Shown: piece by piece, positions 6,923-32,527 of the stretch | Layout: each line of letters begins with the position of its first letter | How positions within the stretch are numbered: the first letter of the stretch is position 1 | From: a virus | Lineage: Duplodnaviria > Heunggongvirae > Uroviricota > Caudoviricetes | IMG/VR virus record: IMGVR_UViG_2531839178_000021 | Span: 1 to 39,572 of that record | Reading direction: 5' to 3' (one strand) | DNA: 39,572 bases | Translations under genes and position numbers: made by a program | The notes under the pieces: model-generated | Database searches by the model: none | Seen by the model: only the letters and a program-made list of their open reading frames with translations | Told to the model about the DNA's origin: nothing

Positions 6923-6936
6923 CATCTCTTTTTGGT

Positions 6937-16422: not shown

Positions 16423-16436
16423 ACGGAGTAAACACC

Positions 16437-18294: not shown

Positions 18295-18497
18295 CTTTAA
18301 TCATCTGAGAATATAAGATAGAAATCAATTGATTAGCATAATTTATTTTGAATTTTCATGTTAATAAATAAAAGGCCAGTTATTGGCCTTTTATCATTAC
18401 TTTCCATTTTTTAATGAATTGATTAACGATGCTATTTGCTCAATGCCATCAAATGTAGATGGTATCTTATCATCGGATAGCATGATGTTTGAAAATA

Positions 18498-18815: not shown

Positions 18816-18901
18816 GATTGCACTTTCTTTTTTTTGCCAAGTGAATTAAAGCCTTCAAACAATCCAACAAAATTAAATGCGACCTCATACCCTTTTAATG
18901 A

Positions 18902-19468
18902 CTATTTGATTGACTCTATTTTGGTATGTTGCTCCTTTAAGAAGGAGTCGCACTTTTCGAAAAATTGACGCCCTTCGTTTAAACTATCAATGTATTTTTT
19001 ATATGTGTCAACATTGCTGGAGCTTAAAACTTCTTTAACCATTGCTAATGGCAGTTCTCTAAGAGAAAAGTCTATCTGTGCTCTGCTCCGCTCATCGAAT
19101 TCATTATAGTTATACAGAGCAAAATCCTTGATGGTTCTTAGTGGTGAAAAGTGAGACTCTATTTCCGGAGAGAGAATGCTTGGTTCAATGATAAATCTAA
19201 AAAAGCAAGTGAATATAAGGTTGATGCTGTTGTTATCTTCTCCCTTTTCTCTTAAGAAACTTTTAAAGGTGTCGCCAATCATAGCAATGTTGTGCTGGGA
19301 TTTTTTGTCCCAATCTTCAGGGTTTTCGGAAATGAAGTTTATTGCTTGAGCAATTATTTTGTTTCTGTTTGATTCAAAGTTTGTGCCGGGAGTCAGCGTG
19401 TTCAAAAAGACCAGATAATCTTTGAACAATTCTTTCATTGTTTCTGACGAGAAAAAGTAAGTACTCAT
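18902..19468 (-). CDS. Hypothetical cargo protein (~188 aa), unknown function
   Basis: low-GC ORF on the strand opposite to the tail genes, inserted between S and V; start taken at ATG 19468 (MSTYFFSSETMKELF); the longer ORF to 19564 uses GTG and overlaps the V start. Confidence 0.5.
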   Translation of the reverse strand: MSTYFFSSETMKELFKDYLVFLNTLTPGTNFESNRNKIIAQAINFISENPEDWDKKSQHNIAMIGDTFKSFLREKGEDNNSINLIFTCFFRFIIEPSILSPEIESHFSPLRTIKDFALYNYNEFDERSRAQIDFSLRELPLAMVKEVLSSSNVDTYKKYIDSLNEGRQFFEKCDSFLKEQHTKIESIK

Positions 19469-19554
19469 AATGGATTTTGTTGTCCCTTGTTGTTCTGTGC
19501 ACCAGAAATCGTGGTGTGATTTACTTCGAGATTGTACAGAATCATTATTATCGA

Positions 19555-20184
19555 ATGAATGCACAATACAATGAAATTCTTCGCTTTATACGCAATATGA
19601 TTCGCACTGGCATTATTGTCGAAACCGACCTTAATGCCGGTCGCTGCCGTGTGCAGACCGGCGGCATGTGCACCGACTGGCTTCAGTGGCTGACCCATCG
19701 CGCCGGACGTTCGCGCACATGGTGGGCACCTTCCGTGGGGGAACAGGTGCTGATTCTGGCCGTGGGCGGTGAACTCGACACGGCGTTCGTTCTGCCGGGG
19801 ATTTATTCCTGCGATAACCCCGCGCCGTCTGCGTCGGCGGATGCCCTGCATATCCGTTTCCCTGACGGGGCGGTGATTGAGTATGAACCCGAAACCAGTG
19901 CACTCACGGTAAGCGGAATTAAAACGGCCAGCGTGACGGCTTCTGATTCTGTTACTGCCACGGTGCCGGTGGTCATGGTGAAAGCGTCAACCCGCATCAC
20001 CCTGGACACCCCGGAGGTGGTCTGCACCAACAGACTGATTACCGGCACGCTGGAAGTGCAGAAGGGCGGGACGATGCGCGGCAACATTAAACATACCGGC
20101 GGTGAACTCTCATCAAACGGTAAGGTACTGCATACCCATAAACACCCCAGCGACAGCGGCGGCACAACCGGGAGTCCTCTATGA
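19555..20184 (+). CDS. V: Baseplate spike protein V
   Basis: MNAQYNEILRFIRNMIRTGIIVETDLNAGRCRVQTGGMCTDWLQWL. Confidence 0.85.
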   Translation: MNAQYNEILRFIRNMIRTGIIVETDLNAGRCRVQTGGMCTDWLQWLTHRAGRSRTWWAPSVGEQVLILAVGGELDTAFVLPGIYSCDNPAPSASADALHIRFPDGAVIEYEPETSALTVSGIKTASVTASDSVTATVPVVMVKASTRITLDTPEVVCTNRLITGTLEVQKGGTMRGNIKHTGGELSSNGKVLHTHKHPSDSGGTTGSPL

Positions 20185-20528
20185 CAGCGCGTTATCTTGG
20201 AATGAATCGCAGTGATGGCCTGACGGTCACTGACCTTGAGCATATCAGCCAGAGTATCGGCGATATCCTGCGCACACCGGTCGGCTCACGGGTGATGCGT
20301 CGTGATTACGGCTCGTTGCTGGCGTCAATGATTGACCAGCCGCAGACCCCGGCGCTTGAGTTGCAGATTAAGGTCGCCTGTTACATGGCGGTGCTGAAAT
20401 GGGAACCCCGCGTCACCCTGTCATCCGTCACCACGGCGCGCAGCTTTGATGGGCGAATGACGGTCACGTTAACCGGCCAGCACAACGACACCGGCCAGCC
20501 ACTTTCGTTAACCATCCCTGTGAGTTGA
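20181..20528 (+). CDS. W: Baseplate protein W
   Basis: 115-aa ORF MTARYLGMNRSDGLTVTDLEHISQSIGDILRTPVGSRVMRRDYGS. Confidence 0.85.
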   Translation: MTARYLGMNRSDGLTVTDLEHISQSIGDILRTPVGSRVMRRDYGSLLASMIDQPQTPALELQIKVACYMAVLKWEPRVTLSSVTTARSFDGRMTVTLTGQHNDTGQPLSLTIPVS

Positions 20529-20532
20529 AACC

Positions 20533-21441
20533 ATGCCGATTATCGACCTGAACCAGCTACCCGCACCGGATGTGGTCGAGGAGCTGGACTTTGAAACCAT
20601 TCTCGCCGAACGCAAGGCGACACTGATTTCCCTTTACCCGGAAGACCAGCAGGAGGCGGTCGCCCGTCCCCTGACGCTGGAATCTGAGCCTCTCGTCAAA
20701 CTGCTGGAGGAAAATGCTTATCGTGAGCTTATCTGGCGTCAGCGTGTGAATGAGGCCGCACGGGCGGTGATGCTGGCCTGTGCCGCCGGTAATGACCTTG
20801 ATGTGATTGGTGCCAATTACAACACCACGCGTCTGACTATCACCCCGGCAGATGATTCGACTATCCCGCCGACACCGGCAGTGATGGAGTCTGACACGGA
20901 TTATCGTCTGCGTATTCAGCAGGCGTTTGAAGGCTTAAGCGTCGCCGGGTCGGTGGGAGCCTATCAGTATCATGGTCGCAGTGCTGACGGGCGTGTCGCG
21001 GATATCTCTGTCACCAGTCCGTCTCCGGCCTGCGTCACTATCTCCGTGCTGTCACGTGAAAATAACGGCGTCGCATCCGAAGACCTGCTGGCCGTGGTGC
21101 GTAACGCCCTTAATGGCGAGGACGTCAGGCCGGTGGCCGACCGCGTGACCGTGCAGTCTGCCGCCATTGTTGAATATCAGATAAACGCCACACTTTACCT
21201 TTACCCAGGTCCCGAAAGCGAACCCATCCGCGCTGCTGCCGTGAAAAAACTGGAAGCGTACATCACGGCACAGCACCGGCTGGGGCGTGACATCCGTCTG
21301 TCTGCCATTTATGCCGCTTTGCATGTGGAAGGCGTGCAGCGTGTCGAACTGACTGCACCGCTGGCTGACATCGTGCTCAACAGTACGCAGGCGTCTTTCT
21401 GTACTGAATACCGCGTCGTGACCGGAGGCTCGGATGAGTGA
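20533..21441 (+). CDS. J: Baseplate protein J
   Basis: 302-aa ORF MPIIDLNQLPAPDVVEELDFETILAERKATLISLYPEDQQ. Confidence 0.85.
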   Translation: MPIIDLNQLPAPDVVEELDFETILAERKATLISLYPEDQQEAVARPLTLESEPLVKLLEENAYRELIWRQRVNEAARAVMLACAAGNDLDVIGANYNTTRLTITPADDSTIPPTPAVMESDTDYRLRIQQAFEGLSVAGSVGAYQYHGRSADGRVADISVTSPSPACVTISVLSRENNGVASEDLLAVVRNALNGEDVRPVADRVTVQSAAIVEYQINATLYLYPGPESEPIRAAAVKKLEAYITAQHRLGRDIRLSAIYAALHVEGVQRVELTAPLADIVLNSTQASFCTEYRVVTGGSDE

Positions 21442-21964
21442 TTCGCGACTGCTGCCGACCGGCTCATCACCGCTTGAAGTCGCCGCCGCAAAAGCCTGTG
21501 CGGAAATTGAAAAAACACCGGTCAGTATTCGTGAGCTGTGGAACCCGGACACCTGCCCGGCAAATCTGCTGCCGTGGCTGGCGTGGGCGTTTTCGGTCGA
21601 CAGGTGGGATGAAAAGTGGCCGGAAGCGACCAAACGCGCCGTTATTCGCGATGCCTATTTCATCCACTGTCATAAAGGCACTATAGGTGCAATCCGGCGT
21701 GTGGTGGAGCCGCTAGGCTATCTCATCAACGTGACGGAGTGGTGGGAAACCAGTGACCCGCCGGGCACCTTCCGGCTTGATATTGGTGTACTGGAAAGTG
21801 GCATCACAGAGGCAATGTATCAGGAAATGGAACGGCTGATTGCTGATGCCAAACCTGCAAGCCGCCACCTTATTGGCCTGAACATTACCCGGGACATTCC
21901 CGGCTACCTGTTCGCCGGTGGTGTGGCTTATGACGGCGATGTAATTACGGTTTACCCCGGATAA
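21434..21964 (+). CDS. I: Baseplate protein I
   Basis: 176-aa ORF, start overlaps J stop. Confidence 0.8.
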   Translation: MSDSRLLPTGSSPLEVAAAKACAEIEKTPVSIRELWNPDTCPANLLPWLAWAFSVDRWDEKWPEATKRAVIRDAYFIHCHKGTIGAIRRVVEPLGYLINVTEWWETSDPPGTFRLDIGVLESGITEAMYQEMERLIADAKPASRHLIGLNITRDIPGYLFAGGVAYDGDVITVYPG

Positions 21965-22496
21965 GTGAGGAATAATGAGCACAAAATTCAGAACCGTTAT
22001 CACCACTGCCGGTGCAGCAAAGCTGGCAGCGGCAACCGCACCGGGAGGGCGGAAGGTCAACATTACCACGATGGCCGTCGGGGATGGCGGTGGTAAATTG
22101 CCTGTCCCGGATGCCGGACAGACCGGGCTTATCCATGAAGTCTGGCGACATGCGCTGAACAAAATCAGCCAGGACAAACGAAACAGTAATTATATTATCG
22201 CAGAGCTGGTTATTCCGCCGGAGGTGGGCGGTTTCTGGATGCGTGAGCTTGGCCTGTACGATGATGCGGGAACGTTAATTGCCGTGGCGAACATGGCCGA
22301 AAGTTATAAGCCAGCTCTTGCCGAAGGCTCAGGGCGTTCGCAGACCTGCCGTATGGTCATCATCGTCAGCAGTGTGGCCTCAGTGGAGCTGACCATTGAC
22401 ACCACAACGGTGATGGCGACGCAGGATTACGTTGATGACAAAATTGCAGAGCACGAACAGTCACGACGTCACCCGGACGCCTCGCTGACCGCAAAA

Positions 22497-22860
22497 GGTT
22501 TTACTCAGTTAAGCAGTGCGACCAACAGCATGTCTGAAACACTGGCTGCAACGCCGAGAGCGGTAAAGACCGCCTATGACCTTGCTAACGGGAAATATAC
22601 CGCGCAGGATGCCACCACCGCGCGAAAAGGCCTTGTTCAGCTCAGTAGTGCGACTAACAGCACGTCTGAAACGCTCGCCGCAACGCCGAAAGCGGTAAAG
22701 GCAGCATATGACCTTGCTAACGGGAAATACACTGCACAGGATGCCACAACAGCGCGAAAAGGCCTTGTTCAGCTCAGTAGCGCCACCAACAGTGATTCTG
22801 AAACGCAGGCTGCAACGCCAAAGGCGGTGAAGTCTGCCTATGACAATGCTGAAAAACGTC
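22497..22860 (+). repeat. Tandem 132-bp (44-codon) coding repeat, ~2.75 copies, inside tail fibre gene H
   Basis: units starting 22497, 22629, 22761: LSSATNS-SETLAATPKAVKAAYDLANGKYTAQDATTARKGLVQ. Confidence 0.8.
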
Positions 22861-22931
22861 TTCAGAAAGATCAGAACGGTGCGGATATCCCTGATAAAGA
22901 ACGCTTCCTGAGTAACATTAGGCTGTGTCCC

Positions 22932-23444
22932 TTAATTACGTAAGCGTTGATAAAAGAGTCGGATGCAGCCCAGTTTCACCATCGCCAGGTAATTTCTCGC
23001 CGTTTTGTCGTAACGCGTGGCGATGCGGCGATATTCTTTCAGCCGCCCAAAGCACCGTTCAACGACATTACGATTGCAGTACGCATCACGATCAAGCTGT
23101 GCACGTCCATCCGATGCCATTTTCTCATTTGACTTTCGGGGGATTACTGCCTTTATACCGTTATTTTTCAGCTCGTTGCGCAATGCGCGCCCTGAATACG
23201 CTTTATCAGCCAGTACCGCATGTCCACGGCGTTTCATGCTGCCGTTCTGACGCTGAACGCCAATCCCGTCCAGAAGTCGTTGCGCGAACTGGCTTTCATG
23301 AGCTTGTCCGGGGCTTAGCACGATATTTAACGGGAGGCCACTTCCGTCTGTTGCCAGATGGATTTTGGTGCCAAAACCGCCGCGAGAGCGACCCAGCCCA
23401 TTATCTCCGTCGATATCGGGATGTTTTTTGAGCACCGGCGGCAC
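22932..23444 (-). CDS. IS transposase OrfB (copy 2)
   Basis: same protein as 2569-3084 apart from the N-terminal residues at the A-run. Confidence 0.75.
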   Translation of the reverse strand: MPPVLKKHPDIDGDNGLGRSRGGFGTKIHLATDGSGLPLNIVLSPGQAHESQFAQRLLDGIGVQRQNGSMKRRGHAVLADKAYSGRALRNELKNNGIKAVIPRKSNEKMASDGRAQLDRDAYCNRNVVERCFGRLKEYRRIATRYDKTARNYLAMVKLGCIRLFYQRLRN

Positions 23445-23775
23445 ATTTCAGCGCCCGGATATTACTGCCATCCAGCGCGGTGGCAGACCAGTCAATAAAG
23501 CCGTTTGCATCAAGTAGCGAAAGCAACCTGTTGAAAATAATATTAATCACGCCTGACTTTGACCATCGGTTAAAGCGGTTATAAACAGTTTTCCATGACC
23601 CATATCGTTCGGGTAAATCGCGCCATGGTGCACCGGAACATAACACCCAGAACATGCCATTGATGATTTTACGGTGCTCAGCCCATGGGCGTCCGGCCCG
23701 TGGTGTGGCGGGTTCAGGAGGTAACAGGGGCTTGATGATGGTCCATGCCTCATCGGGAAGGTCGTAGCGAGCCAT
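23401..23775 (-). CDS. IS transposase OrfA (copy 2); with A6 the OrfB frame is +1 rather than -1
   Basis: MARYDLPDEAWTIIKPLLPP...AQKTSRYRRR stop. Confidence 0.7.
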   Translation of the reverse strand: MARYDLPDEAWTIIKPLLPPEPATPRAGRPWAEHRKIINGMFWVLCSGAPWRDLPERYGSWKTVYNRFNRWSKSGVINIIFNRLLSLLDANGFIDWSATALDGSNIRALKCAAGAQKTSRYRRR

Positions 23776-24682
23776 AGTTCAATATGTTGTGTAAACAGAC
23801 AGTTACTATAGCTCAGATGATTAAGGGACACAGCCTAGTGTTTTTTATGTTGAAGCCAGAGCTTTCCCTGTACAAATTCTTGCAGAGGAAGGGCTAACGG
23901 TTATTGTTCCGACAGAGGATTATGTCGTCGGTCAAACGACATATAAGTGGGGGGCAACTAATCCCGCTACAGAAAGCACGAACGCACAGGCTATTCTGGA
24001 TTTTAAAAATGGACGTGGTTATTACTGTTCACATCCATTTATTTCCAGCCTTTCAGGAAATGCTGCAACAGCAACGAAGTTAGCGAACGCAAGAAATATT
24101 AATGGTGTCAGATTTGATGGCTCTGCCGATATAAATATTAATACACTGGTATCCAGAAACCGTGTTACTGCATTAGGTGGGAGCGTAAAGGGGACACCAG
24201 GTATTCAGATGTATGAGGCATACAACAATGGCTACCCAACAGCCTATGGTAATGTGCTTCATCTCACTGGCGTAACCGCAGTAGGAGAGGGTGAGTTACT
24301 TATTGGTTGGAGTGGAACCAGCGGTGCTCATGCTCCGGCATATATTCGTTCCCGACGAGATACCACAGATGCTAACTGGTCTGGATGGGCGCAACTATAT
24401 ACAACTGCTCATAAACCCTCAGCGGGAGATGTTGGTGCATACACCAAAACTGAGTCAGATTCACGTTATGTGAGAGACATGCGGCTGGGCGGTGCATCTA
24501 CATATAAACCAGCAAATAATGGTACTACATGGACGCATCAGGCTCCGTCAGGTTGCGTATATACCGGCATTATTGTTCAGGATACCGGCTCAAACTCTGC
24601 CGATAACATTGGTGGCGTATATTACAGACCGGTGCAGAAATACATTAACGGGACATGGTATAACGTGGTGCAGGTATAATTT

Positions 24683-25210
24683 ATGCAGCATTTAAAAAAT
24701 ATTACGGCGGGTAATCCAAAAACGGTTGAACAATATCAATTGACAAAGGACTTTGATGTTGTCTGGTTTTTTTCAGAAGATGGTAAGAACTGGTACGAAG
24801 AACAAAAGTATTTTGCTGATGACACGATAAAAATAGCGTACGACAAAGATAATATCATCCACTATGTGGAAAAGGATGTGACAGCTATCAGACCGGATGG
24901 ATTAAGTGTTGTTGAAGTGGCGGATATTACTGCTAACCGACGGGCGGACATTTCAGGGAACTGGATGTTTAAGGACGGCAAAGTGATTAAACGCGTTTAT
25001 ACGGCAGAGGAATTACAGCAGCAGGCAGAAATTCGGAAAGCCAGACTTCTTGCAGATGCTGAATCCGTGATTTTGCCGCTGGAGCGCGCGGTCAGACTGA
25101 ACATGGCAACAGATGAGGAGCGTAGCCGACTGGAATCATGGGAACGCTACAGCGTTCTGGTCAGTCGTGTGGATCCTGCAAATCCTGAATGGCCGGAAAT
25201 GCCGCAATAA
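24683..25210 (+). CDS. G: Tail fibre assembly chaperone G
   Basis: 175-aa [44 protein letters not shown] immediately after H. Confidence 0.85.
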
Positions 25211-25259
25211 GTTGTATTAGCTTACATATCTATGGCACAGAGTAAAGCCTAATCTGACA

Positions 25260-25298
25260 GTCCGCTCTGTGCCAGGAGCAGACATTGCCAACGTTATG
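25260..25298 (+). repeat. ~39-bp direct repeat, copy A (partner at 27932-27970)
   Basis: gtccgctctgtgccaggagcagacattgccaacgttatga versus gttcgctttgtgccaggagcggacgttgccagcattgag, ~85 percent identity. Confidence 0.7.
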
Positions 25299-25677
25299 AC
25301 CCTCGATTACATCAAAGAGCCCTATAGCCGAAACCTGCACCATAGCCATCTCTGTAGAATTCGTCCTAGGGGCTTTTAACAGACCTAGTTGTATGGATCG
25401 GAAGGAAATATTAAAGCTCAAGGCGTCAGTCCAGTGCTGTCCTGTTTGCTTACCACACGAAAGAGTGCTGCTTGTACCTGCTAACTAATGGTATGCGGAG
25501 TGAGGGGGGCGGGTAGAACCAAAAGCACTTACTACGTGTGGCGCTCTCCTGGAAGAGGAGACGTCGAAGTGATAACGCTAACAACAGTCTTACTGGTGAT
25601 GCAAATAATGCTAGCTGGTCTGGTTGCCATCAAGCAACTGACCGGACGCCCGTAAGGGATGGAGGAACTTGATTAAA

Positions 25678-25707
25678 GGCAGGGGGGTTACCTCCCCTGC
25701 CTTTTTC
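25678..25707 (+). terminator. Strong rho-independent terminator
   Basis: GGCAGGGG-ggttacct-CCCCTGCC followed by TTTTT; lies ~470 nt downstream of G stop with no ORF of 60 aa or more between. Confidence 0.75.
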
Positions 25708-25769
25708 GTTTCTGCGCAAGTTAGCTCTGTTATTATAATCCTTACTCACACTGTAAGGACATAGTTCAA

Positions 25770-26033
25770 ATGACTGAATGGCTTAATGCACATTTTGGTG
25801 CAGACGCAGCTACCTATCTTAGCTTATTAGTCGGCGTACTGGCACTGTTTGGTATTGGGGGCGGTGTTACATATAGAATCAGACAGCAAAACAACATAAA
25901 ACAGAAGGCAAAGAAAACCGAGGGTGATGTGAACCAGGCCGGGCGGGATATTAATCAGACCACCAACGTTTACCACACATCCAATGAATCTACTGAGGAC
26001 CCTGTAAAAAAAAGCAAGATGAACATGATCTGA
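25770..26033 (+). CDS. Membrane-anchored hypothetical protein, N-terminal segment (single TM helix)
   Basis: TATAAT at 25734-25739; MTEWLNAHFGADAATYLSLLVGVLALFGIGGGV; ORF ends just after an A8 run (26006-26013) where the next ORF's frame opens. Confidence 0.55.
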   Translation: MTEWLNAHFGADAATYLSLLVGVLALFGIGGGVTYRIRQQNNIKQKAKKTEGDVNQAGRDINQTTNVYHTSNESTEDPVKKSKMNMI

Positions 26034-26056
26034 AGATAATCGACCAGATCCTTGAA

Positions 26057-26452
26057 TTGCTGCCTTATGAGGATACTACTCAATGGGTTGAGCAGAGCTA
26101 CCTGAGCGGTATACGGCAAGATGTTTGCTTAAACATTGAAAAAGCTGAAAAATTTAGCGGTGAAAAGTATCGGTTATTCAATACTGAAGTGAATGGTGCG
26201 AAAGACGCTTTTTTGGACGCTATGACCGCATACGTAGATAGTACGCTACCATTTATGAGTGTTGATTACCCGAACAGAAAGCCAGTGATGCTAAGCCTTC
26301 CCCATGACTGGAAGAGTAAGAGTGTTGAATCGGAGGCAAACTTCCGCTTTCATCAGCAAAATGTGCGTGAAACATCGGGGGGGATGATTGCGCGCTATGA
26401 GGATTTTGTCAGGACATTTAAGGCTCATGGATTCATAAGCGATAAACTGTAA
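26057..26452 (+). CDS. Hypothetical protein segment lacking an ATG start; probably the C-terminal part of one ~227-aa gene 25770-26452 broken by a 1-nt deletion
   Basis: frame open from 25997; ORF-track start is TTG; frame offset from 25770 is of deletion type. Confidence 0.5.
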   Translation: MLPYEDTTQWVEQSYLSGIRQDVCLNIEKAEKFSGEKYRLFNTEVNGAKDAFLDAMTAYVDSTLPFMSVDYPNRKPVMLSLPHDWKSKSVESEANFRFHQQNVRETSGGMIARYEDFVRTFKAHGFISDKL

Positions 26453-26545
26453 AGGCGCAGTGGGTCAGCGAACACCGCAACGACAGAACCGCGTAAGCGG
26501 TAAAATCAGCTTGTTAACTGGCGAGTTTATAGCCGTCCCTCCGGG

Positions 26546-27846
26546 CTGAGGGATCCCCACAAAATTACTGCTAATAAACCAGTACCATATTTCGGTAGGT
26601 TCTGGACAGATGGTTTAGAACTGTGCTCAGTACTGTTCGTCTTAAAATAAGTGGCGAGTGTCGAAGAACATTCTTCGCTAACGTCAGATATGAGATAACC
26701 CGCCGGGATTTAATGCTGTTAGCCTGATATTTCAGGTGTAACCCTTTATTTTCAGCGTGATAACCGAGTAACCACATTACGATAGTGCTCAACGTTGCCA
26801 GCAGACTCAGAACCAGAATTCTTCCTGTTGAACGACTTTTGCTGGCCCGAAGACCAAATCCGAAGCGCCCGTTCTTTTCATCACGAAAGTTTTGCTCTAT
26901 CTGCATTCGCCGACTGTATAACTTGATGATTTCTCGCGCTCTGAAGTCATTTGTACTGCTGAAGATCAACCAGGCTTCTTTTGCTGATTTGCTCTGTTCT
27001 TTGTCTGTTTTGTTTAAACCACTCTGACCTTTCGAACGTTTCTTTTTTCGCCCTTTTGCCGATTTCTTATAGGTGTAAAAATGCCCCCGGATGCTTTTTT
27101 TCCTTTCTTTAACCAGCCTTCCAGCCCCCATATATTCCGGTGTTTTACATTCAGGGCTATCCGACACTTTTAACCATCTTTCAGGCGCGTTATCGAGGCA
27201 ATACTGAACGTTATTTCTGATCCGACCAATAAAATCCCAGCCCAGAGAAGTAATATGGTGAAACCATGCGCTCTGAAATCCAGCATCCGTGACAATAATA
27301 ACCCTGGCATCGGGGGGCAGGGATTGAGCAAGGGAATCAAGGAAATCATGTTGTATCAATGGATTATTTTGTTTTTCAGAAGGAACAACCTTACTCAATA
27401 ACGGAATGGAACGCCCGTCACACAGAAGGCTGGCACGAAGAACATGATGCTCCTGGGAGGGATAGCCACTCCAGTCTACGGCTATTACACATAAAGATAA
27501 CTGCCGTGTCAGCATTGAAGTGATATTCCTGAAAATCATTGGAATATCGCGATGGAGCGCCTCATTACCCATGAGGCGATCAATACGTTTGCTCTTATTC
27601 TTAACTTGTGCATTACCCGGGAAAAAACGTCCGATACTGGTCAGCGTCAGAGATGCTCCGTTGATTAACGCCACTGTGGCATCCATCAGGGCATTTTGTC
27701 GGTACTGATGAAATGGTGCTAAGGCATCCCGGAAGAAATTCTGACATACTTTATGAACAGGCATAGCAGTGATCTCATTGAATTGTTGGCACAAATCAGT
27801 AGATCACATAATGCTATGTCTGTCTCGTTTTCTGGGAATTCCTCAG
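26546..27846 (-). mobile_element. IS10-like (IS4-family) insertion sequence, ~1.3 kb, with 9-bp target-site duplication CCCTCCGGG
   Basis: ends CTGAGGGATCCCC (26546-) and its reverse complement (-27846); identical 9-mers at 26537-26545 and 27847-27855. Confidence 0.8.
26571..27764 (-). CDS. IS10-like transposase (~397 aa)
   Basis: KRIDRLMGN, VDWS, VLRAS, TDAGFQSAWF, SLGW, SKGRKKKRS, SAKEAW, IKLYSRRMQIEQNFRD, FGLRAS: motifs shared with the IS10 transposase. Confidence 0.8.
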   Translation of the reverse strand: MPVHKVCQNFFRDALAPFHQYRQNALMDATVALINGASLTLTSIGRFFPGNAQVKNKSKRIDRLMGNEALHRDIPMIFRNITSMLTRQLSLCVIAVDWSGYPSQEHHVLRASLLCDGRSIPLLSKVVPSEKQNNPLIQHDFLDSLAQSLPPDARVIIVTDAGFQSAWFHHITSLGWDFIGRIRNNVQYCLDNAPERWLKVSDSPECKTPEYMGAGRLVKERKKSIRGHFYTYKKSAKGRKKKRSKGQSGLNKTDKEQSKSAKEAWLIFSSTNDFRAREIIKLYSRRMQIEQNFRDEKNGRFGFGLRASKSRSTGRILVLSLLATLSTIVMWLLGYHAENKGLHLKYQANSIKSRRVISYLTLAKNVLRHSPLILRRTVLSTVLNHLSRTYRNMVLVY

Positions 27847-27931
27847 CCCTCCGGGGCGGCTTTTTTATGACTATAATCGACAGAATCACCTGAACGTCCA
27901 GGTGGGTTTCCCTGACAGGACGTCAAGGAAT

Positions 27932-27970
27932 GTTCGCTTTGTGCCAGGAGCGGACGTTGCCAGCATTGAG
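27932..27970 (+). repeat. ~39-bp direct repeat, copy B (partner at 25260-25298)
   Basis: see copy A. Confidence 0.7.
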
Positions 27971-28116: not shown

Positions 28117-28902
28117 ATGTACGATTATAGTTTTTTACTTACTCCATCTACAGGATTTGTTAAAGGATTATGTGGAGTTTGGTCGAATGATTTCTCTATA
28201 AATGATGATTCTGACTCTGATTTAGGGCAAACAGATATTCATTTACTTTCATCTCCTCATTTGAATATCATATCCGACCCAAATGAATTGGCTTCCAAGT
28301 TAAAAGGTTTGTTGATGCTCATGAACGGCGCACTTAGCGTTCTTTATGGTTTTGAAAGATATCAATCTTTTGGTCCTCTTTCTATTTCTGGAAGTGAAGG
28401 CATTAATTACTCGGAAATATGCGGCTTTAAATCAATGGATGTAACTCAGGTAAACCCCTTTAATTTCCATGACATACAGCAACCACACCCTCGCGCTGAT
28501 AATTTTTCACGATTAATTAATTTATCATCTAAACATGAATCCTTACGTGTTGTTTTAGGTATGTGTGCCTTAGGTTATGATTGGGTTAATCTTTATCGTT
28601 TGTGGGAAACAATTAGAGAATATGTATATGATAAATATGTGAAAGGTATACTAAATTTCCCCGACGCTTATAAAGGCAAGAAATATCAGAGAGATAAAGT
28701 AATTAGCATGGCTTTTAATATTGATGAAAAGGAAATCAGCAGATTCACGGGCACTGCTAATAGCTTTGAACTGTTAGGGTATCTTGCGAGACATGGAAAG
28801 GGAAGTTCCGGAGGGATATTAAAAAATCCGATGTCAAGAGTTGACGCAAGCATTTTCGTACACAAAGCAACTTACAAATATTGTAAGTTATTTTTGATGT
28901 AA
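28117..28902 (+). CDS. Hypothetical cargo protein (261 aa), unknown function
   Basis: low-GC ORF with AAGAGGGA RBS; no recognisable motif. Confidence 0.6.
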   Translation: MYDYSFLLTPSTGFVKGLCGVWSNDFSINDDSDSDLGQTDIHLLSSPHLNIISDPNELASKLKGLLMLMNGALSVLYGFERYQSFGPLSISGSEGINYSEICGFKSMDVTQVNPFNFHDIQQPHPRADNFSRLINLSSKHESLRVVLGMCALGYDWVNLYRLWETIREYVYDKYVKGILNFPDAYKGKKYQRDKVISMAFNIDEKEISRFTGTANSFELLGYLARHGKGSSGGILKNPMSRVDASIFVHKATYKYCKLFLM

Positions 28903-29004
28903 GTAAAAAGTTGAAGCTATAATACTCAAAGTATCGAAAACTACGTTCGTCGTGCACTCGAAAACAATATGCTTATTGTGTCTGCACTAATTACTCAAGG
29001 TCCG

Positions 29005-29041
29005 AGAAAAATGGCGAAGCTCATCTTTTTCAGGCTTCGCC
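29005..29041 (-). terminator. Hairpin terminator between the convergent genes 28117-28902 and 29064-29816
   Basis: GGCGAAGC-13 nt loop-GCTTCGCC; on the minus strand followed by ATTTTT. Confidence 0.5.
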
Positions 29042-29063
29042 AACTTGAGTTATTGGTTAAAAT

Positions 29064-29816
29064 TCATTTAGGAATAATAGAATGCAATTCGTGACTCACC
29101 TGGATTTCATAGTGTTTCAATAGTTCTCCGATGTTAATTCCTACTACCTTACGAACTGCGCCGAGGGAGAAGTTAAGCTCCTCAATGCCCGGCCGATCTG
29201 GCGTTGAATTCATATAGTGTCGGCACGCACGGACAATTGACTCGACGATCAACGATAGCGGAGACTCAGGTGCAATCTCGGAGCGAATCGCCGTAAGAGA
29301 GAGTCGGAGCTCCTTCAAAGAATCCGAGACTCGTGCTGGATCCTCTTGAGCATATGGCAGATAAAGAGAACTCTTGTCTTCCAATAAATGGATCAACCGC
29401 AGAGCAATTTTCTCGTCTGGGCGATGCGATAGAAATTGAAACATTAGCCTCTTTCCTCCCTCCAAGCACTCCTTCATTAGTGATTCGTGGTCACGTTTCC
29501 ATTTTCGCAAATACTCGGCGGGGTAGCCCATACCGCCATTCTTATCAACTAAATCAGCACAAGCTCCGCACAACCATATAGCATTTTTTATGCTCTTCCG
29601 CTCTGTTTCTGACTGAGACATGTCATAGCGCGGTCCGCCAGGGCTCGCCGCGCAGATATGCGCCGCCTCACCCGTCTTGATAGAAAGATTTTCCGCCAAT
29701 TGATCCGGGCCGATTGTTACCCTATGACAAGAGGGATTGCTACAAATATATGTAGCGCGCTCTGCTACCTTACCTACAACGCTTGGAGGAAAGTTGTGCC
29801 TATTTGTCTTGGTCAT
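29064..29816 (-). CDS. Hypothetical protein with N-terminal Cys/His cluster resembling an HNH/His-Me-finger nuclease motif
   Basis: YICSNPSCH ... AAHICAASPGG ... NAIWLCGACADLVD; mid-GC; the IS630 copy lies ~70 bp upstream of its start. Confidence 0.45.
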   Translation of the reverse strand: MTKTNRHNFPPSVVGKVAERATYICSNPSCHRVTIGPDQLAENLSIKTGEAAHICAASPGGPRYDMSQSETERKSIKNAIWLCGACADLVDKNGGMGYPAEYLRKWKRDHESLMKECLEGGKRLMFQFLSHRPDEKIALRLIHLLEDKSSLYLPYAQEDPARVSDSLKELRLSLTAIRSEIAPESPLSLIVESIVRACRHYMNSTPDRPGIEELNFSLGAVRKVVGINIGELLKHYEIQVSHELHSIIPK

Positions 29817-29887: not shown

Positions 29888-31041
29888 AATAGCTGCGCTT
29901 AATACCGCTACACTTTTGCCAGTCCATGTTTGCCTCCGGGGAATGGGCTGACGGTTTCCATAAAATGGCGAACTTTTTTCAACAGTTGCCACATTGAGCG
30001 GCACTGATGATTACGCGTTATTGTGTCGTGAAGTGCCTGCCATAGCCGTTCAACATGATTCACCCATGGCGAGTAAACCGGCTGATAAATGACCCTGAAC
30101 TTCGGGTTCTCCTTCAGCCAGCTCTGTGTTTCCCGGCTTTTGTGGATAATGTAGTTGTCCACGATCAGCGTGATGGTTTTCGCCCGACGCTATGTCGCTT
30201 TAAGCCGCTTCAGCAGGCTGATGAACAGCGCCGAACTTTTTGCTGTTGCCGCCCACATAGCTGACTTTACCTGTCCCGCTGTGCAGCGCTCCGGCCAGAT
30301 AATATTTTTCATTCTGTCCCGGCGTGACCACCCGTTTTTGCTGTCCGCGCAGTTGCCAGTCCGCACCGATTTTGGGATGAAGATGGATATCCACTTCATC
30401 TTCATAAAAGACCGGATGCTCTGCGCTGCATTCGTCCAGTGCTTTATGGATTGCTGCCATCTTTTCATCTTTATGCGGGTCACGGATACGCAGAGTTGGC
30501 GCAGCCCTTCGCCACACAATCCCCGCAGACGGCAACCAGCGGCGAACGGTTCCGGCATTTAACTGGCAACCGGTTATCTCATTGATTTTTATTGCCAGCA
30601 GTTCTGTACTCCAGCGTGAACGCTGGTAGCCAAAGTCGCCGGGAGAATGTTTTACCAGCTCACGTAACAGTGTGCAGATATGCTCAAACGGCCAGCGACG
30701 GGCACGCCCGGCAGGTAATGATTTCAGTCCCTCAACACCCGACTGCGTGAACCAGTTAATCCAGCGTCCAACAGAGGAACGGGCGCAGCAGAGCGTTCTG
30801 GCAACGTCGCTGACACGGTCGCCCCGGTGCAGCATCAGCATGGCAGTCAGTCTGCGGGCATAATTTTTATCGTGTGTTTTATGGATGGCTTTCTGCATCA
30901 GGCGTCGTTCGTCACGGGAAATTGGTGCTATGATCGGCATTGCTCAGTCCGGTTGGTGATTTGTTTTGATTTGGCGATTGATCAGATCGCACAATCCGGG
31001 CTAAGTTCCCTCAAAATGATCTACTATTCCGCGCAGCTATT
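29888..31041 (-). mobile_element. IS630-family insertion sequence (1154 bp), TA duplication within a CTAG target
   Basis: terminal repeats aatagctgcgc (29888-) and gcgcagctatt (-31041); TA at 29886-29887 and 31042-31043 flanked by C and G. Confidence 0.85.
29908..30940 (-). pseudogene. IS630 transposase, split into two ORFs (30200-30940 and 29908-30162) by a frame break
   Basis: N-part MPIIAPISRDERRLMQKAIHKTHDKNYARRL.. and C-part ..NYIIHKSRETQSWLKENPKFRVIYQPVYSPWVNHVERLW together approximate the recalled single 343-aa IS630 transposase. Confidence 0.75.
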
Positions 31042-31214
31042 TAGGTCTGACCAGCAACCTATTGATCAAAAAACCAAGATATTAGCTAAAAAAATCAGCA
31101 TACTTGAGACCAAGCTCAATGTCCGCTCCTCGCTCAAAGCAGACTGTCAGATTTGATAGCATTTGGGCTATGTAAATTGTCAGGCGGAAAATGAGTGAGT
31201 ACAAATCAGGACAG

Positions 31215-31336: not shown

Positions 31337-32527
31337 ATGAGTGACTATCATCACGGCGTGCAGGTGCTGGAGATTAACGACGGCACCCGCGTCATTTCCA
31401 CCGTATCCACGGCCATTGTCGGCATGGTCTGCACGGCCAGCGATGCAGATGCGGAAACCTTCCCCTTCAATAAACCGGTGCTGATTACCAATGTGCAGAG
31501 CGCAATTGCAAAGGCCGGTAAAAAAGGCACGCTGGCGGCGTCGTTACAGGCCATCGCTGACCAGTCAAAACCGGTCACCGTTGTTGTGCGCGTGGAAGAC
31601 GGCACCGGCGACGACGAAGAAACGAAGCTCGCGCAGACCGTTTCCAATATCATCGGCACCACCGACGAAAACGGTCAGTACACCGGACTGAAAGCCCTGC
31701 TGGCGGCGGAGTCGGTAACCGGTGTTAAACCGCGCATTCTCGGTGTGCCGGGACTGGATACCAAAGAGGTGGCTGTTGCACTGGCATCAGTCTGTCAGAA
31801 GCTGCGCGCTTTCGGGTATATCAGCGCATGGGGCTGTAAAACCATTTCCGAGGTGAAAGCCTACCGCCAGAATTTCAGCCAGCGTGAGCTGATGGTCATC
31901 TGGCCGGATTTCCTCGCATGGGATACGGTCACCAGTACCACCTCCACCGCGTATGCCACCGCCCGTGCGCTGGGGCTGCGCGCTAAAATCGACCAGGAGC
32001 AGGGCTGGCATAAAACGCTGTCCAACGTCGGGGTGAACGGTGTTACCGGCATCAGCGCGTCCGTATTCTGGGATTTGCAGGAGTCCGGCACCGATGCTGA
32101 CCTGCTTAACGAGTCAGGCGTCACAACGCTGATTCGCCGTGACGGTTTCCGCTTCTGGGGTAACCGTACCTGCTCTGATGACCCGCTGTTCCTCTTTGAA
32201 AACTACACCCGCACCGCGCAGGTGCTGGCCGACACGATGGCTGAGGCGCACATGTGGGCGGTGGACAAGCCCATCACCGCAACGCTGATTCGCGACATCG
32301 TTGACGGCATCAATGCCAAATTCCGTGAGCTGAAAACAAACGGCTATATCGTGGATGCGACCTGCTGGTTCAGCGAAGAATCCAACGATGCGGAAACCCT
32401 CAAGGCCGGAAAACTGTATATCGACTACGACTATACACCGGTGCCTCCTCTCGAAAACCTGACCCTGCGCCAGCGTATTACCGATAAATACCTGGCAAAT
32501 CTGGTCACCTCGGTTAACAGCAATTAA
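31337..32527 (+). CDS. FI: Tail sheath protein FI
   Basis: 396-aa ORF MSDYHHGVQVLEINDGTRVISTVSTAIVGMV. Confidence 0.9.
   Translation: MSDYHHGVQVLEINDGTRVISTVSTAIVGMVCTASDADAETFPFNKPVLITNVQSAIAKAGKKGTLAASLQAIADQSKPVTVVVRVEDGTGDDEETKLAQTVSNIIGTTDENGQYTGLKALLAAESVTGVKPRILGVPGLDTKEVAVALASVCQKLRAFGYISAWGCKTISEVKAYRQNFSQRELMVIWPDFLAWDTVTSTTSTAYATARALGLRAKIDQEQGWHKTLSNVGVNGVTGISASVFWDLQESGTDADLLNESGVTTLIRRDGFRFWGNRTCSDDPLFLFENYTRTAQVLADTMAEAHMWAVDKPITATLIRDIVDGINAKFRELKTNGYIVDATCWFSEESNDAETLKAGKLYIDYDYTPVPPLENLTLRQRITDKYLANLVTSVNSN

What the first reader, a model, noticed from the sequence alone, without database searches (positions are those of the whole stretch)
25260..27970. Imperfect ~39-bp direct repeats bracket a 2.7-kb module in the G-FI cargo region
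The repeats at 25260-25298 and 27932-27970 are ~85 percent identical and flank the structured region, the membrane-anchored gene, and the IS10-like element. They could be recombination anchors where cargo cassettes are exchanged between P2-like phages, remnants of a duplicated 3' UTR, or att-like sites of a small integrated cassette.
Basis: seen in the sequence. Interest (0 to 1): 0.4.

Follow-up and report, generated by a model that had tools for sequence, protein, structure and literature searches.

The report
Recombination sites bounding swappable prophage cargo cassettes
The two 39-bp repeats are copies of a short lox-like recombination site that marks the edges of swappable gene cassettes in P2-like prophages, genomic islands and plasmids of enterobacteria, which offers a concrete, testable mechanism for how these cargo and defence hotspots trade genes.

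Summary
The repeats are real: 25260-25295 and 27932-27967 are 83% identical, with none expected by chance. Each holds a 24-bp core, GTCCGCTn-TGTGCCAG-GAGCGGAC (8-bp inverted arms, 8-bp asymmetric spacer), here called an L site. A third, inverted copy with spacer TGAGCGAG (R site) lies at 31121-31144, just before tail-sheath gene FI.

The cargo region therefore reads G | L > cassette 1 | L > cassette 2 | < R | FI. Copy 1 lies within the "left inverted repeat" annotated in GenBank P2 Z-region records (Nilsson 2004).

Cassette 1 occurs at about 99% identity beside four different right-hand neighbours. Similarity always stops inside copy 2. E. coli CFT073 carries the matching empty site. The whole L-c1-L-c2-R block recurs in unrelated genomic islands, and similarity ends at the L and R cores.

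Across about 470 unique sites the arrangement is strict: L and R converge on cassettes, and same-type sites are direct. Spacer hybrids are almost absent (1 of 195).

A conserved 200-aa Xer-like tyrosine recombinase gene always lies between an R half-site and an L site. It is the candidate enzyme but is absent from this window.

Recombination at these sites is shown. Catalysis by a site-specific enzyme is inferred.

The parts
24683..25210 (+). P2 gene G (tail fibre assembly): conserved left backbone flank of the cargo region
   Evidence: ORF. Annotated 'tail fiber assembly protein' in the 99.4% identical cM2a locus.
25211..25259 (+). Outer part of the P2 'left inverted repeat'. It contains GGCACAGAG (25234-25242), which can pair with CTCTGTGCC (25266-25274); this may be a decayed inverted L half-site.
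   Evidence: Aligns with the repeat_region 'left inverted repeat' of GenBank AJ512679 and AJ512681. Hairpin seen in the DNA fold.
25260..25283 (+). L-type core site, copy 1: arm GTCCGCTC, spacer TGTGCCAG, arm GAGCAGAC. Its left half is backbone-linked and its right half is cassette-1-linked.
   Evidence: nhmmer E=3e-16. Half-site origins.
25284..25298 (+).
25299..25710 (+). Cassette 1, non-coding leader. It is folded (z = -2.8), contains a possible 28-aa hydrophobic ORF (GTG at 25569 to 25655) and ends in a strong intrinsic terminator (25675-25704).
   Evidence: No Rfam family.
25770..26452 (+). Cassette 1 gene: 227-aa protein with one N-terminal membrane helix (WP_000141343 in intact copies). 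In the window it is split by a 1-nt deletion in an A-run (A8 versus A9, 26006-26013).
   Evidence: No Pfam, NCBIfam or PADLOC match.
26531..26545 (+). Left half of cassette 1's terminator hairpin (intact form AGCCGTCCCTCCGGGGCGGCTTTTTT), split by the IS. Positions 26537-26545 are one copy of the 9-bp target duplication CCCTCCGGG.
   Evidence: (pair I1).
26546..27846 (-). IS4-family insertion sequence (1301 bp, 407-aa transposase at 26571-27794). It is a secondary insertion and not part of the cassette.
   Evidence: NCBIfam transpos_IS4_2, E=1.6e-107. Absent from cM2a, SE11, F41 and EC_J_9.
27847..27931 (+). 3' end of cassette 1: second copy of the target duplication (27847-27855), the rest of the terminator, and the cassette-linked sequence that runs into copy 2
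   Evidence: Conserved in all contexts that carry cassette 1.
27932..27955 (+). L-type core site, copy 2: arm GTTCGCTT, spacer TGTGCCAG, arm GAGCGGAC. Its left half is cassette-1-linked and its right half is linked to whatever follows.
   Evidence: E=3e-12. Similarity to SE11, CFS3313-type islands and plasmid pSCU-111-1 ends at 27955-27960.
27956..27970 (+). Inner flank of copy 2 (GTTGCCAGCATTGAG)
28117..29816 (.). Cassette 2: a 261-aa protein (28117-28902, +) and a 250-aa HNH-type protein (29064-29816, -; annotated DUF6650; matches PADLOC candidate PDC-M68A)
29888..31041 (-). Second secondary insertion (IS630-like by my reading, frameshifted transposase), absent from cM2a, F41 and EC_J_9
   Evidence: The family name was not tested.
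31121..31144 (-). R-type core site. On the minus strand it reads GTCTGCTT-TGAGCGAG-GAGCGGAC. It is the right boundary of the cargo region.
   Evidence: E=2e-13. P2 backbone similarity resumes at 31115-31135. Similarity to the F41 and EC_J_9 islands ends at 31144-31150.
31145..31185 (-). Outer part of the P2 'right inverted repeat' (..CTGTCAGATTTGATAGCATTTGGGCTATGTAAAT..), which mirrors 25220-25259
   Evidence: (inverted matches 31117-31153 and 25251-25286).
31337..32527 (+). P2 gene FI (tail sheath): conserved right backbone flank

Best explanation
The two repeats are two directly oriented copies of a 24-bp core recombination site, here called the L site: GTCCGCTn-TGTGCCAG-GAGCGGAC, with 8-bp inverted arms around an asymmetric 8-bp spacer, laid out like lox, FRT or dif. 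Together with one inverted R site (spacer TGAGCGAG) in front of FI, they divide the P2 G-FI cargo region into two cassettes: G | L > cassette 1 | L > cassette 2 | < R | FI. Cassette 1 is about 1.36 kb without the later IS insertion. It entered, and in principle can leave as a circle, by L x L recombination, which duplicates the site; each copy is therefore a hybrid of a context-derived half and a cassette-derived half. Whole cargo blocks are swapped between P2-like prophages, CP4-like genomic islands, other prophages and plasmids by paired crossovers at an L site and an R site. Because L and R have different spacers and face each other, they should not recombine with each other, so the cargo would be neither inverted nor deleted. 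This is the logic of engineered recombinase-mediated cassette exchange. What is shown: the site anatomy, the arrangement rules, the empty and filled sites, and similarity breakpoints inside the 24-bp cores. What is inferred: that a site-specific tyrosine recombinase catalyses the exchange. The best candidate is a 200-aa Xer-like recombinase whose gene always lies between an R half-site and an L site. It is not encoded in this window, so it would have to act in trans.
For: Site anatomy: 253 unique L and 216 unique R sites give the consensus GTCcGCTt TGTGCCAG gAGCGGAC and GTCcGCTn TGAGCGAG GAGCGGAC. The seven outer arm positions are complementary in 57-98% of sites. CFT073 carries a perfect 12-8-12 version, GACAGTCCGCTC-TGTGCCAG-GAGCGGACTGTC. 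Two discrete spacer classes: a scan pattern that allowed all four combinations found 194 of 195 unique matches to be either T..C or A..G (Fisher p about 1e-23 and 1e-32). Arrangement rules over unique neighbouring site pairs: 139 L> <R convergent pairs (median 1.6 kb apart), 65 abutting <R L> junctions (offset 19 nt), 42 direct L-L pairs as in the window, 11 direct R-R pairs, 13 divergent <R L> pairs lying farther apart (307-3121 nt), and at most 3 for every other combination. Portability of cassette 1: it occurs at 98.5-99% identity with four different right-hand neighbours (window/cM2a, SE11, CFS3313-type islands, plasmid pSCU-111-1), and similarity always ends at 27955-27960 inside copy 2. 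Empty versus filled site: the CFT073 L site equals the left half of CFS3313 copy 1 plus the right half of its copy 2. SNPs in SE11 and in the plasmid place the crossover within GTGCCA. Further breakpoints in the cores: strain 536 differs from CFT073 by a 4.27-kb L x L indel that leaves a hybrid site; strains 097H6 and ECONIH6 replace everything between the first L and the last R. Window cargo as a unit: 25237/25249 to 31144/31150 is 99% identical in CP4-like islands of strains F41 and EC_J_9 with unrelated flanks, and the F41 R site is a hybrid. P2 backbone: in 29 P2-type loci, similarity to the window ends at 25273-25298 and resumes at 31115-31135; a P2 genome assembly has L and R around its G-FI cargo genes. 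Candidate enzyme: the 200-aa Phage_integrase-domain protein is flanked by an R half-site and a variant L site in E. coli islands and prophages, Proteus, Idiomarina and marine ICE-like elements (integrative conjugative element-like), and similarity between these units ends inside the spacers. There are at least 8000 homologues at 76-96% identity among the listed best hits, in the same taxa that carry the sites. The gene is present in 774-959 of 5426 E. coli genomes. Literature: the GenBank annotation and a review citing Nilsson 2004 attribute site-specific exchange to inverted repeats flanking fun.
Against: No recombinase is encoded in the window, and none was enriched near sites in about 250 loci. 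No recombination activity, DNA binding or cleavage position has been measured. Because the partners share only 17-24 nt, any mechanism would put the crossover inside the core, so breakpoint mapping does not separate site-specific from short-homology recombination. The spacer is more conserved than the arms, which is unusual for tyrosine-recombinase sites. Most loci were recruited by a pattern that fixes much of the core, so the consensus and conservation values are partly circular. The sequences are also related by descent, so the Fisher p-values overstate independence. No P2 prophage carrying cassette 2 without cassette 1 was found, so the direction (insertion or deletion) in the P2 context is not established. 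The Nilsson 2004 paper could not be read.
Confidence: 0.7

Rival explanations
1. The repeats are only short patches of shared sequence. Cassettes move between elements by homology-dependent recombination (RecA, or phage annealing proteins such as Red or RecET), using the 24-60-nt conserved boundary sequences as anchors, with no dedicated site-specific enzyme.
For: The partners share 17-24 identical nt at every mapped junction, which from general knowledge is near the minimum for RecA-dependent exchange and within the range used by phage annealing proteins. No recombinase is encoded in the window or enriched near sites. In the P2 context the shared sequence extends about 40 nt beyond the core.
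Against: This does not explain why the anchor is dyad-symmetric. It does not explain two strictly separate spacer classes (194 of 195) or the L/R orientation rules. It does not explain conservation of the same 24 bp from E. coli to Erwinia, Proteus and Idiomarina, or why a tyrosine recombinase gene is always framed by the two half-sites.
Confidence: 0.15
2. The abutting R/L pair (about 66 bp, an imperfect palindrome) is the mobile unit: a miniature transposon-like or REPIN-like element whose autonomous form carries the small recombinase or some other enzyme. It seeds intergenic regions. The 'cassettes' are simply whatever lies between copies, shuffled afterwards by recombination between copies.
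For: There are 65 unique abutting junctions with a fixed 19-nt offset and a conserved linker, CTTcagCtCagt.Agct. The recombinase gene occupies exactly the linker position between an R half-site and an L half-site. The doublet of inverted short palindromes resembles REP doublets (my own knowledge).
Against: The polymorphisms actually observed are cassette plus one site, or whole blocks between L and R. None is a bare 66-bp element present in one genome and absent in another. No target-site duplication is visible at the P2 boundaries. P2 boundaries and the window's copy 2 are single sites, not doublets. Copy number per E. coli genome is low, at most 6.
Confidence: 0.1
3. The repeat is a regulatory or RNA element, such as a terminator, an mRNA-stabilising hairpin or an operator, that travels with the genes. 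Its duplication here would be a leftover of a duplicated 3' UTR.
For: Copy 1 lies directly after gene G. The core can form a 7-8-bp hairpin.
Against: There is no T-run, and the terminator scan does not pick up any site; the real terminators lie elsewhere (25675-25704, and the IS-split hairpin). Single-strand folds are weak, z about -1.3 to -1.7. Sites occur on both sides of cassettes whatever the gene orientation. No Rfam family matches. This reading does not explain hybrid sites or the empty and filled alleles.
Confidence: 0.03

Closest known systems
Inverted repeats flanking the Z/fun cargo region of P2-like coliphages (Nilsson, Karlsson and Haggard-Ljungquist 2004, Mol Biol Evol 21:1; GenBank AJ512676-AJ512683)
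   Same: Same locus and same sequence. Copy 1 aligns within the annotated 'left inverted repeat' immediately after G, and the R site corresponds to the repeat in front of FI. [quoted passage not shown]
   Different: The window has an extra internal direct copy that splits the cargo into two cassettes. The following points come from my own analysis, and I could not check them against the 2004 paper: the 24-bp arm-spacer-arm core, the two spacer classes, arrays in other mobile elements and chromosomes, and the linked small recombinase gene.
Integron gene cassettes and attC sites
   Same: Arrays of small, mostly promoter-poor accessory genes (GNAT acetyltransferases, glyoxalase-family proteins, kinases, defence candidates) separated by imperfect palindromic junctions of about 66 bp. 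Cassette gain produces a duplicated site. A tyrosine recombinase is the candidate enzyme.
   Different: There are no R''/L''/L'/R' boxes or GTTRRRY core. No IntI or attI platform is present. Genes lie in either orientation, and cassettes may hold several genes with their own regulators. Each junction is two separate dyad sites of different spacer class, not one folded site. The candidate recombinase is 200 aa and matches the integron-integrase model only marginally (E=0.006).
Engineered recombinase-mediated cassette exchange with heterospecific lox or FRT sites
   Same: A cassette is flanked by two sites that share arms but differ in spacer, so each pairs only with its own kind. Double crossover swaps the cargo without deleting it. 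The 8-8-8 (up to 12-8-12) layout resembles the 13-8-13 layout of loxP.
   Different: This would be a natural system. The enzyme is unidentified and spacer incompatibility is untested. The sequence is unrelated to lox or FRT (from memory, not tested).
pdif modules of Acinetobacter plasmids (XerC/XerD-dependent)
   Same: Accessory modules bounded by inversely oriented short recombination sites, found in many plasmid contexts, with no recombinase inside the module.
   Different: The site sequence has no resemblance to the 11-6-11 XerC/XerD consensus (compared from memory only). Adjacent cassettes here have two sites 18 nt apart rather than one shared site. Host range differs.
REP/BIME/REPIN and ERIC intergenic repeats of enterobacteria
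   Same: Short imperfect palindromes, often as inverted doublets with a conserved linker, dispersed in Enterobacterales.
   Different: The sequence is different: a genuine ERIC copy found in locus L202 does not resemble the site. K-12 strains give only a weak match inside ydfV (E=0.2), probably chance. Copy number is low and sites cluster at accessory cassettes. No RAYT (REP-associated transposase) gene is linked. The sites show hybrid, empty and filled alleles typical of att sites.

Membership tests
P2 Z-region boundary repeats (Nilsson 2004 / GenBank 'left' and 'right inverted repeat') | Lies immediately downstream of gene G (left) and upstream of FI (right) in a P2-like genome | tested here: met
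   Copy 1 starts 50 nt after the G stop. The R core lies 193 nt before the FI start. The same layout is seen in a P2 assembly.
P2 Z-region boundary repeats (Nilsson 2004 / GenBank 'left' and 'right inverted repeat') | Sequence homologous to the annotated repeat_region of P2-EC45, EC48 and related records | tested here: met
   Window 25181-25283 aligns at 86-91% with AJ512679 and AJ512681 positions 1-106.
P2 Z-region boundary repeats (Nilsson 2004 / GenBank 'left' and 'right inverted repeat') | Unrelated cargo lies between the repeats in different phages | tested here: met
   Backbone similarity ends at 25273-25298 and resumes at 31115-31135 in 29 P2-type loci.
Tyrosine-recombinase core site (lox/FRT/dif type) | Two inverted recombinase-binding arms around a 6-8-bp asymmetric spacer | tested here: met
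   8-8-8 consensus from about 470 unique sites; arm complementarity 57-98%; a perfect 12-8-12 example in CFT073.
Tyrosine-recombinase core site (lox/FRT/dif type) | Strand exchange occurs inside the spacer; the products are hybrid sites | tested here: inconclusive
   Hybrid sites, and crossover intervals limited to GTGCCA or the spacer edge, were found in five or more comparisons. However, the shared identity is so short that other mechanisms would give the same map.
Tyrosine-recombinase core site (lox/FRT/dif type) | A cognate recombinase binds and cleaves the site | not testable with these tools
   There is only a genomic association with a 200-aa Phage_integrase-domain protein.
Integron attC / gene cassette | R''-L''...L'-R' boxes with a GTTRRRY core, folding into a bulged hairpin | tested here: not met
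   The consensus lacks these boxes. Folds of junctions give two small separate hairpins with weak energy.
Integron attC / gene cassette | IntI integrase and attI at the head of the array; cassettes co-oriented | tested here: not met
   No IntI was found near the arrays. Genes lie in both orientations. The candidate enzyme scores E=0.006 against the integron-integrase model, well below its cutoff.
Prophage attL/attR of the P2-like element itself | Direct repeats at the two ends of the whole prophage, next to int and at the host junction | tested here: not met
   Both copies are internal, between the late genes G and FI. The host junction lies near cyaR at 38043-38128.
Transposon or IS terminal inverted repeats | Inverted ends flanked by a target-site duplication, with a transposase between them | tested here: not met
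   No duplication is visible outside the L/R pair. The only transposases between them are secondary IS elements with their own ends and their own 9-bp duplication.
ERIC / REP-type intergenic repeats | Match to the ERIC or REP consensus; high copy number in core intergenic regions, including K-12 | tested here: not met
   An ERIC copy in L202 is unrelated apart from CCAGGAGC. K-12 strains give only a weak match inside ydfV (E=0.2), probably chance, and there are at most 6 places per E. coli genome. The REP consensus was compared from memory only.
Intrinsic terminator | GC-rich hairpin followed by a T-run | tested here: not met
   The scan finds terminators at 25675-25704 but none at the repeat copies.
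Xer dif-like site | 11-bp XerC arm, 6-8-bp spacer and 11-bp XerD arm matching GGTGCGCATAA / TTATGTTAAAT | not tested
   Compared by eye with the consensus as I remember it; no resemblance. No tool-based test was run.

The most novel reading that the evidence does not exclude
The window's repeats belong to an unrecognised, integron-independent gene-cassette system of Gammaproteobacteria. It would consist of two heterospecific lox-like sites (L: spacer TGTGCCAG; R: spacer TGAGCGAG) and a highly conserved 200-aa, catalytic-domain-only, Xer-like tyrosine recombinase. The recombinase would act in trans to insert, excise and swap cassettes among P2-like phages, CP4-like islands, other prophages, ICEs, plasmids and chromosomal arrays. 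This would be the mechanism behind cargo turnover at defence hotspots, which papers from 2022 and 2026 state is unknown.
Probability: 0.4. Interest if true: 0.85.

Novelty: new variant of a known kind. Interest (0 to 1): 0.68.

Why it matters
Hotspots in P2-like phages and genomic islands hold much of the anti-phage defence and accessory gene diversity of E. coli. How their cargo moves between unrelated mobile elements is still described as unexplained (Rousset 2022; NAR 2026). A defined 24-bp site with two spacer classes, strict arrangement rules, empty and filled alleles and a candidate recombinase turns that question into simple experiments. It also gives a sequence tag for finding cassette borders, and therefore new cargo genes, across Enterobacterales. 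If the enzyme works as proposed, it would be a compact natural cassette-exchange recombinase of possible use in genome engineering.

Tried and rejected
- **Rfam.** No family matched at the repeats or in the structured leader at gathering or E<=1 thresholds. Only CyaR was found elsewhere in the window.
- **Similarity search with copy 2 and its right flank** against phage records: no match.
- **P2 prophage with cassette 2 but not cassette 1.** None was found. All 15 E. coli genomes carrying cassette 2 also carry the end of cassette 1.
- **Empty SE11-type site.** The right flank of the SE11 island is unique to SE11, so this test could not be done. CFT073 provided the empty site instead.
- **ERIC identity.** Considered because of the shared CCAGGAGC and GTGAGCGAGGA strings; rejected after comparison with a real ERIC copy.
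- **Terminator or RNA hairpin reading.** Rejected.
- **attC reading.** Rejected on site anatomy.
- **Recombinase enriched near sites.** All-against-all clustering of ORFs from about 250 loci gave only cargo families (LysR regulators, dehydrogenases, UmuC) and phage genes.
- **The small recombinase in the window.** Absent. It has no relative in the PDB by sequence.
- **Literature.** Nilsson 2004 and Odegrip 2006 are not held in the library. Full-text searches for the site sequence returned nothing, and topical searches found no description of this site family.


Full report
**Setting.** The window is a P2-like prophage. Late genes run left to right, and gene G (tail fibre assembly, 24683-25210) and FI (tail sheath, 31337-32527) frame a 6.1-kb cargo region. 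The sRNA gene cyaR lies at 38043-38128.

**Observation.** The repeat finder reports 25260-25295 and 27932-27967 as a 36-nt direct repeat, 83% identical and 2672 bp apart. The 23-nt core occurs nowhere else in the window with up to 3 mismatches, and none was expected in shuffles.

- A diverged inverted copy lies at 31121-31144, just upstream of FI.
- Half of the spacing is a later insertion. An IS4-family element (26546-27846), with a 9-bp duplication CCCTCCGGG, landed in the loop of the cassette's terminator hairpin.

Without the IS the repeat period is 1362-1364 bp, as in E. coli cM2a, CFS3313 and SE11.

**What copy 1 is.** The roughly 90 nt after G, including copy 1, match dozens of P2-like phages. 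The similarity stops inside or just past the repeat. In the GenBank Z-region records AJ512679 and AJ512681 this stretch is annotated 'left inverted repeat', with a 'right inverted repeat' before FI. The source paper, Nilsson et al. 2004, is not held in the library. [quoted passage not shown] So copy 1 and the inverted copy are the known boundary repeats of the P2 cargo locus, and copy 2 is an additional internal copy.

**Anatomy of the site.** Aligning copies from several contexts shows a 24-bp core. In E. coli CFT073 it is a perfect 12-8-12 palindrome-with-spacer, GACAGTCCGCTC-TGTGCCAG-GAGCGGACTGTC.

I scanned IMG/VR and one genome per species with GTCYGCTNTGWGCSAGGAGCGGAC. About 9 chance hits are expected in the genome set by my estimate. 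I then profiled all loci with nhmmer. The result was 253 unique L-type and 216 unique R-type sites:
- L: GTCcGCTt TGTGCCAG gAGCGGAC gTTg
- R: ctgAag GTCcGCTn TGAGCGAG GAGCGGAC aTT

The scan pattern allowed all four combinations at the two variable spacer positions. Even so, 194 of 195 unique exact matches are T..C or A..G. There are therefore two discrete spacer classes.

Single-strand folds of the sites are weak (z about -1.3 to -1.7, except for the perfect CFT073 site). No T-run follows them, and the terminator scan ignores them. This favours a double-stranded protein-binding site over an RNA or terminator hairpin.

The element is not ERIC. K-12 strains give only a weak match inside ydfV (E=0.2), probably chance, and other E. 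coli have at most 6 places per genome.

**Arrangement rules.** Counts over unique neighbouring site pairs were as follows.

| Pair type | Count | Note |
|---|---|---|
| L> <R convergent | 139 | median 1.6 kb apart; these enclose cassettes |
| <R L> abutting | 65 | fixed 19-nt offset, conserved linker CTTcagCtCagt.Agct |
| L L direct | 42 | the window's arrangement |
| R R direct | 11 | |
| <R L> divergent, farther apart | 13 | 307-3121 nt |
| every other combination | at most 3 each | |

Tandem arrays of up to 7 sites in 8 kb occur in chromosomes of Erwinia, Pantoea, Klebsiella, Citrobacter, Ewingella and others. Their cargo is typical flexible-genome material: LysR-regulator/oxidoreductase pairs, GNAT acetyltransferases, glyoxalase-family proteins, kinases, methyltransferases, UmuC and defence candidates.

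The window reads G | L > cassette 1 | L > cassette 2 | < R | FI. These are its only three sites at E<=0.1.

**Evidence that recombination happens at the sites.**

1. *Cassette 1 is portable.* Cassette 1 comprises the leader, the 227-aa membrane-anchored protein gene and its terminator. It is present at 98.5-99% identity next to four different right-hand neighbours:
   - cassette 2 (window and cM2a);
   - a 205-aa gene in an SE11 island;
   - the HEC-08 defence candidate in CFS3313, RS571 and CUVET-type islands;
   - a GNAT gene on plasmid pSCU-111-1.

   In every case similarity ends at window 27955-27960, inside copy 2.

2. *An empty site exists.* CFT073 has the same island slot without cassette 1. 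Its single L site equals the left half of CFS3313 copy 1 plus the right half of CFS3313 copy 2. This is the classic attB / attL-attR relation. SNPs in SE11 (copy 1 TC..CCAGG, copy 2 TT..CCAAG) and in the plasmid confine the crossover to GTGCCA within the spacer.

3. *Other alleles of the same island slot break in the cores*. Strain 536 differs from CFT073 by a 4.27-kb indel between two L sites and carries a hybrid L. In strains 097H6 and ECONIH6, everything between the first L (similarity ends at 12035, the last base of the core) and the last R (similarity resumes at 21997-22009, at the R core 22000-22023) is replaced by unrelated cargo.

4. *The window's whole cargo block moves as a unit.* Positions 25237/25249 to 31144/31150 recur at 99% identity in CP4-like islands of E. 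coli F41 and EC_J_9, next to a YeeP-like GTPase gene, with unrelated flanks. In F41 the R site is a hybrid: its inner half matches the cassette and its outer half matches a CFT073-type junction.

5. *P2 backbones break at the same places.* In 29 P2-type loci, similarity to the window ends at 25273-25298 and resumes at 31115-31135.

**Candidate enzyme.** No recombinase family is enriched near sites, and none is encoded in the window. There is, however, a 200-aa protein with a complete Phage_integrase catalytic domain. Its best NCBIfam matches are XerA and XerC, far below their cutoffs. By my inspection the catalytic R, K, HxxR, H and Y residues are present.

Its gene sits in island arrays in a very particular way. 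It lies between an R half-site (..CCTCGCTCA-TAAGGGAC) and a variant L site. The variant L site is a GGGCTGCAACAGCAGCCC hairpin followed by TGTGCCAG-AAGCGGAC, about 20 nt after the stop codon. This is the position normally occupied by the 18-nt linker of a junction.

The same framing is found in:
- two kinds of E. coli island;
- a Qin-like prophage;
- viral contigs, including a decayed copy;
- a Proteus mirabilis island;
- an Idiomarina chromosome;
- marine ICE-like (integrative conjugative element-like) elements, between arsenic and copper modules.

Similarity between these units ends inside the spacers. The family has at least 8000 members, and the listed best hits are 76-96% identical across Enterobacterales, Morganellaceae, Idiomarina, Pseudoalteromonas and Cycloclasticus. 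These taxa overlap those that carry the sites. The gene occurs in 774-959 of 5426 complete E. coli genomes. I regard it as the best candidate, at about 0.45-0.5. It would have to act in trans on this prophage.

**Mechanism proposed.**
- L x L recombination (or R x R) between a circular or resident cassette and a target site inserts or excises cassettes and leaves direct repeats. This explains the finding.
- Paired L x L and R x R crossovers swap whole cargo blocks between unrelated elements.
- L and R share arms but differ at two spacer positions and face each other. A recombinase that requires spacer identity would therefore neither invert nor delete the cargo.

*Shown:* site structure, arrangement rules, hybrid, empty and filled alleles, block transfer, and linkage to the recombinase gene. 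*Inferred:* enzymatic site-specific catalysis, spacer incompatibility and the identity of the enzyme.

**Rivals.**
- *Short-homology recombination without a dedicated enzyme (0.15).* It fits the breakpoint maps, because the partners share only 17-24 nt. It does not explain the dyad symmetry, the two spacer classes, the orientation rules, the cross-genus conservation or the framed recombinase gene.
- *The R/L doublet as a miniature mobile element (0.1).* It fits the fixed linker and the position of the recombinase gene. However, the polymorphisms seen are cassette-sized, and no duplications flank the boundaries.
- *A UTR, terminator or regulatory element (0.03).* The tests above contradict it.

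**Comparison with known systems and novelty.** The repeats are members of the P2 Z-region boundary repeats known since 2004. The internal direct copy is a new arrangement of them. In function the system resembles integron cassettes, pdif modules and engineered cassette exchange with heterospecific lox sites. It fails the defining tests for attC/IntI, ERIC and REP repeats, transposon ends, prophage att sites and terminators (see membership rows).

I found no description of the 24-bp core, the two spacer classes, the arrays outside P2 or the linked small recombinase. Papers from 2022 and 2026 on P2 and P4 defence hotspots state that the exchange mechanism is unknown. My literature access is incomplete, so I rate this 'new variant of a known kind' rather than categorically new.

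**Caveats.**
- Loci were recruited with a pattern containing most of the core, so conservation values are partly circular.
- The sequences are related by descent, so the p-values are inflated.
- The direction of events (gain or loss) is not resolved in the P2 context.
- There are no biochemical data.

Noticed in passing
window 25770-26452 (A-run 26006-26013): The cassette-1 gene (227 aa, one N-terminal membrane helix, no family match) is split in the window by a single-base deletion in a poly-A tract (A8 versus A9 in cM2a). This could be a pseudogene, a sequencing error or a slippage-prone switch.
   Followed up: partly
window 25299-25710: The roughly 410-nt leader of cassette 1 folds better than shuffles (z = -2.8) and ends in a strong terminator (25675-25704). 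It contains a possible 28-aa hydrophobic peptide (GTG at 25569 to 25655, VITLTTVLLVMQIMLAGLVAIKQLTGRP) with a GGAG motif upstream. This resembles a type I toxin-like module. No Rfam match.
   Followed up: partly
window 26546-27846: An IS4-family element is inserted exactly in the loop of cassette 1's intrinsic terminator hairpin, with a 9-bp duplication (26537-26545 and 27847-27855).
   Followed up: yes
window 29888-31041: A second insertion relative to cM2a, F41 and EC_J_9. It carries a frameshifted transposase (ORFs 29908-30162 and 30200-30940, minus strand). By my reading it is IS630-like and sits at a TA; the family was not tested.
   Followed up: partly
window 22925-23831: The tail fibre gene H appears to be interrupted (ORFs 21975-22943 and 24209-24679) by an IS with two overlapping transposase ORFs on the minus strand. 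With three IS insertions, the prophage is probably defective.
   Followed up: no
window 38043-38128 (-): The CyaR sRNA gene (Rfam 100.7 bits) lies beside the prophage end, as expected (from my own knowledge) for a P2-type element at the cyaR/ogrK locus of E. coli.
   Followed up: no
window 29064-29816 (-): The 250-aa protein of cassette 2 has an N-terminal HNH-type nuclease region matching PADLOC candidate PDC-M68A (E=7e-24) and CBASS-type effector nucleases. With the 261-aa neighbour it is a likely two-gene defence candidate.
   Followed up: partly
L010 (E. coli CFT073) 16280-22023; L251 (strain 536): A TonB-dependent receptor plus ABC-transporter iron-uptake operon of uropathogenic E. coli is itself a cassette bounded by an L site and an inverted R site.
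   Followed up: partly
L010 13577-14179 and homologues P0001-P0120: A 200-aa tyrosine recombinase family with only the catalytic domain. The listed best hits are 76-96% identical from E. coli to Idiomarina and Cycloclasticus, there are at least 8000 homologues, and no PDB relative was found by sequence. I found no described function.
   Followed up: partly
L175 6845, 6891, 6937 (MAG labelled Alphaproteobacteria): Three L-type sites in tandem at 46-nt spacing. This arrangement was not seen elsewhere, and it lies outside the usual host range.
   Followed up: no
L009 (E. coli VTB96935v) 4714-8294: The same island slot next to the YeeP-like GTPase gene holds a Gabija-like nuclease and helicase pair, but no L or R site was detected in that locus. 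Not every cargo at this slot is site-bounded.
   Followed up: no
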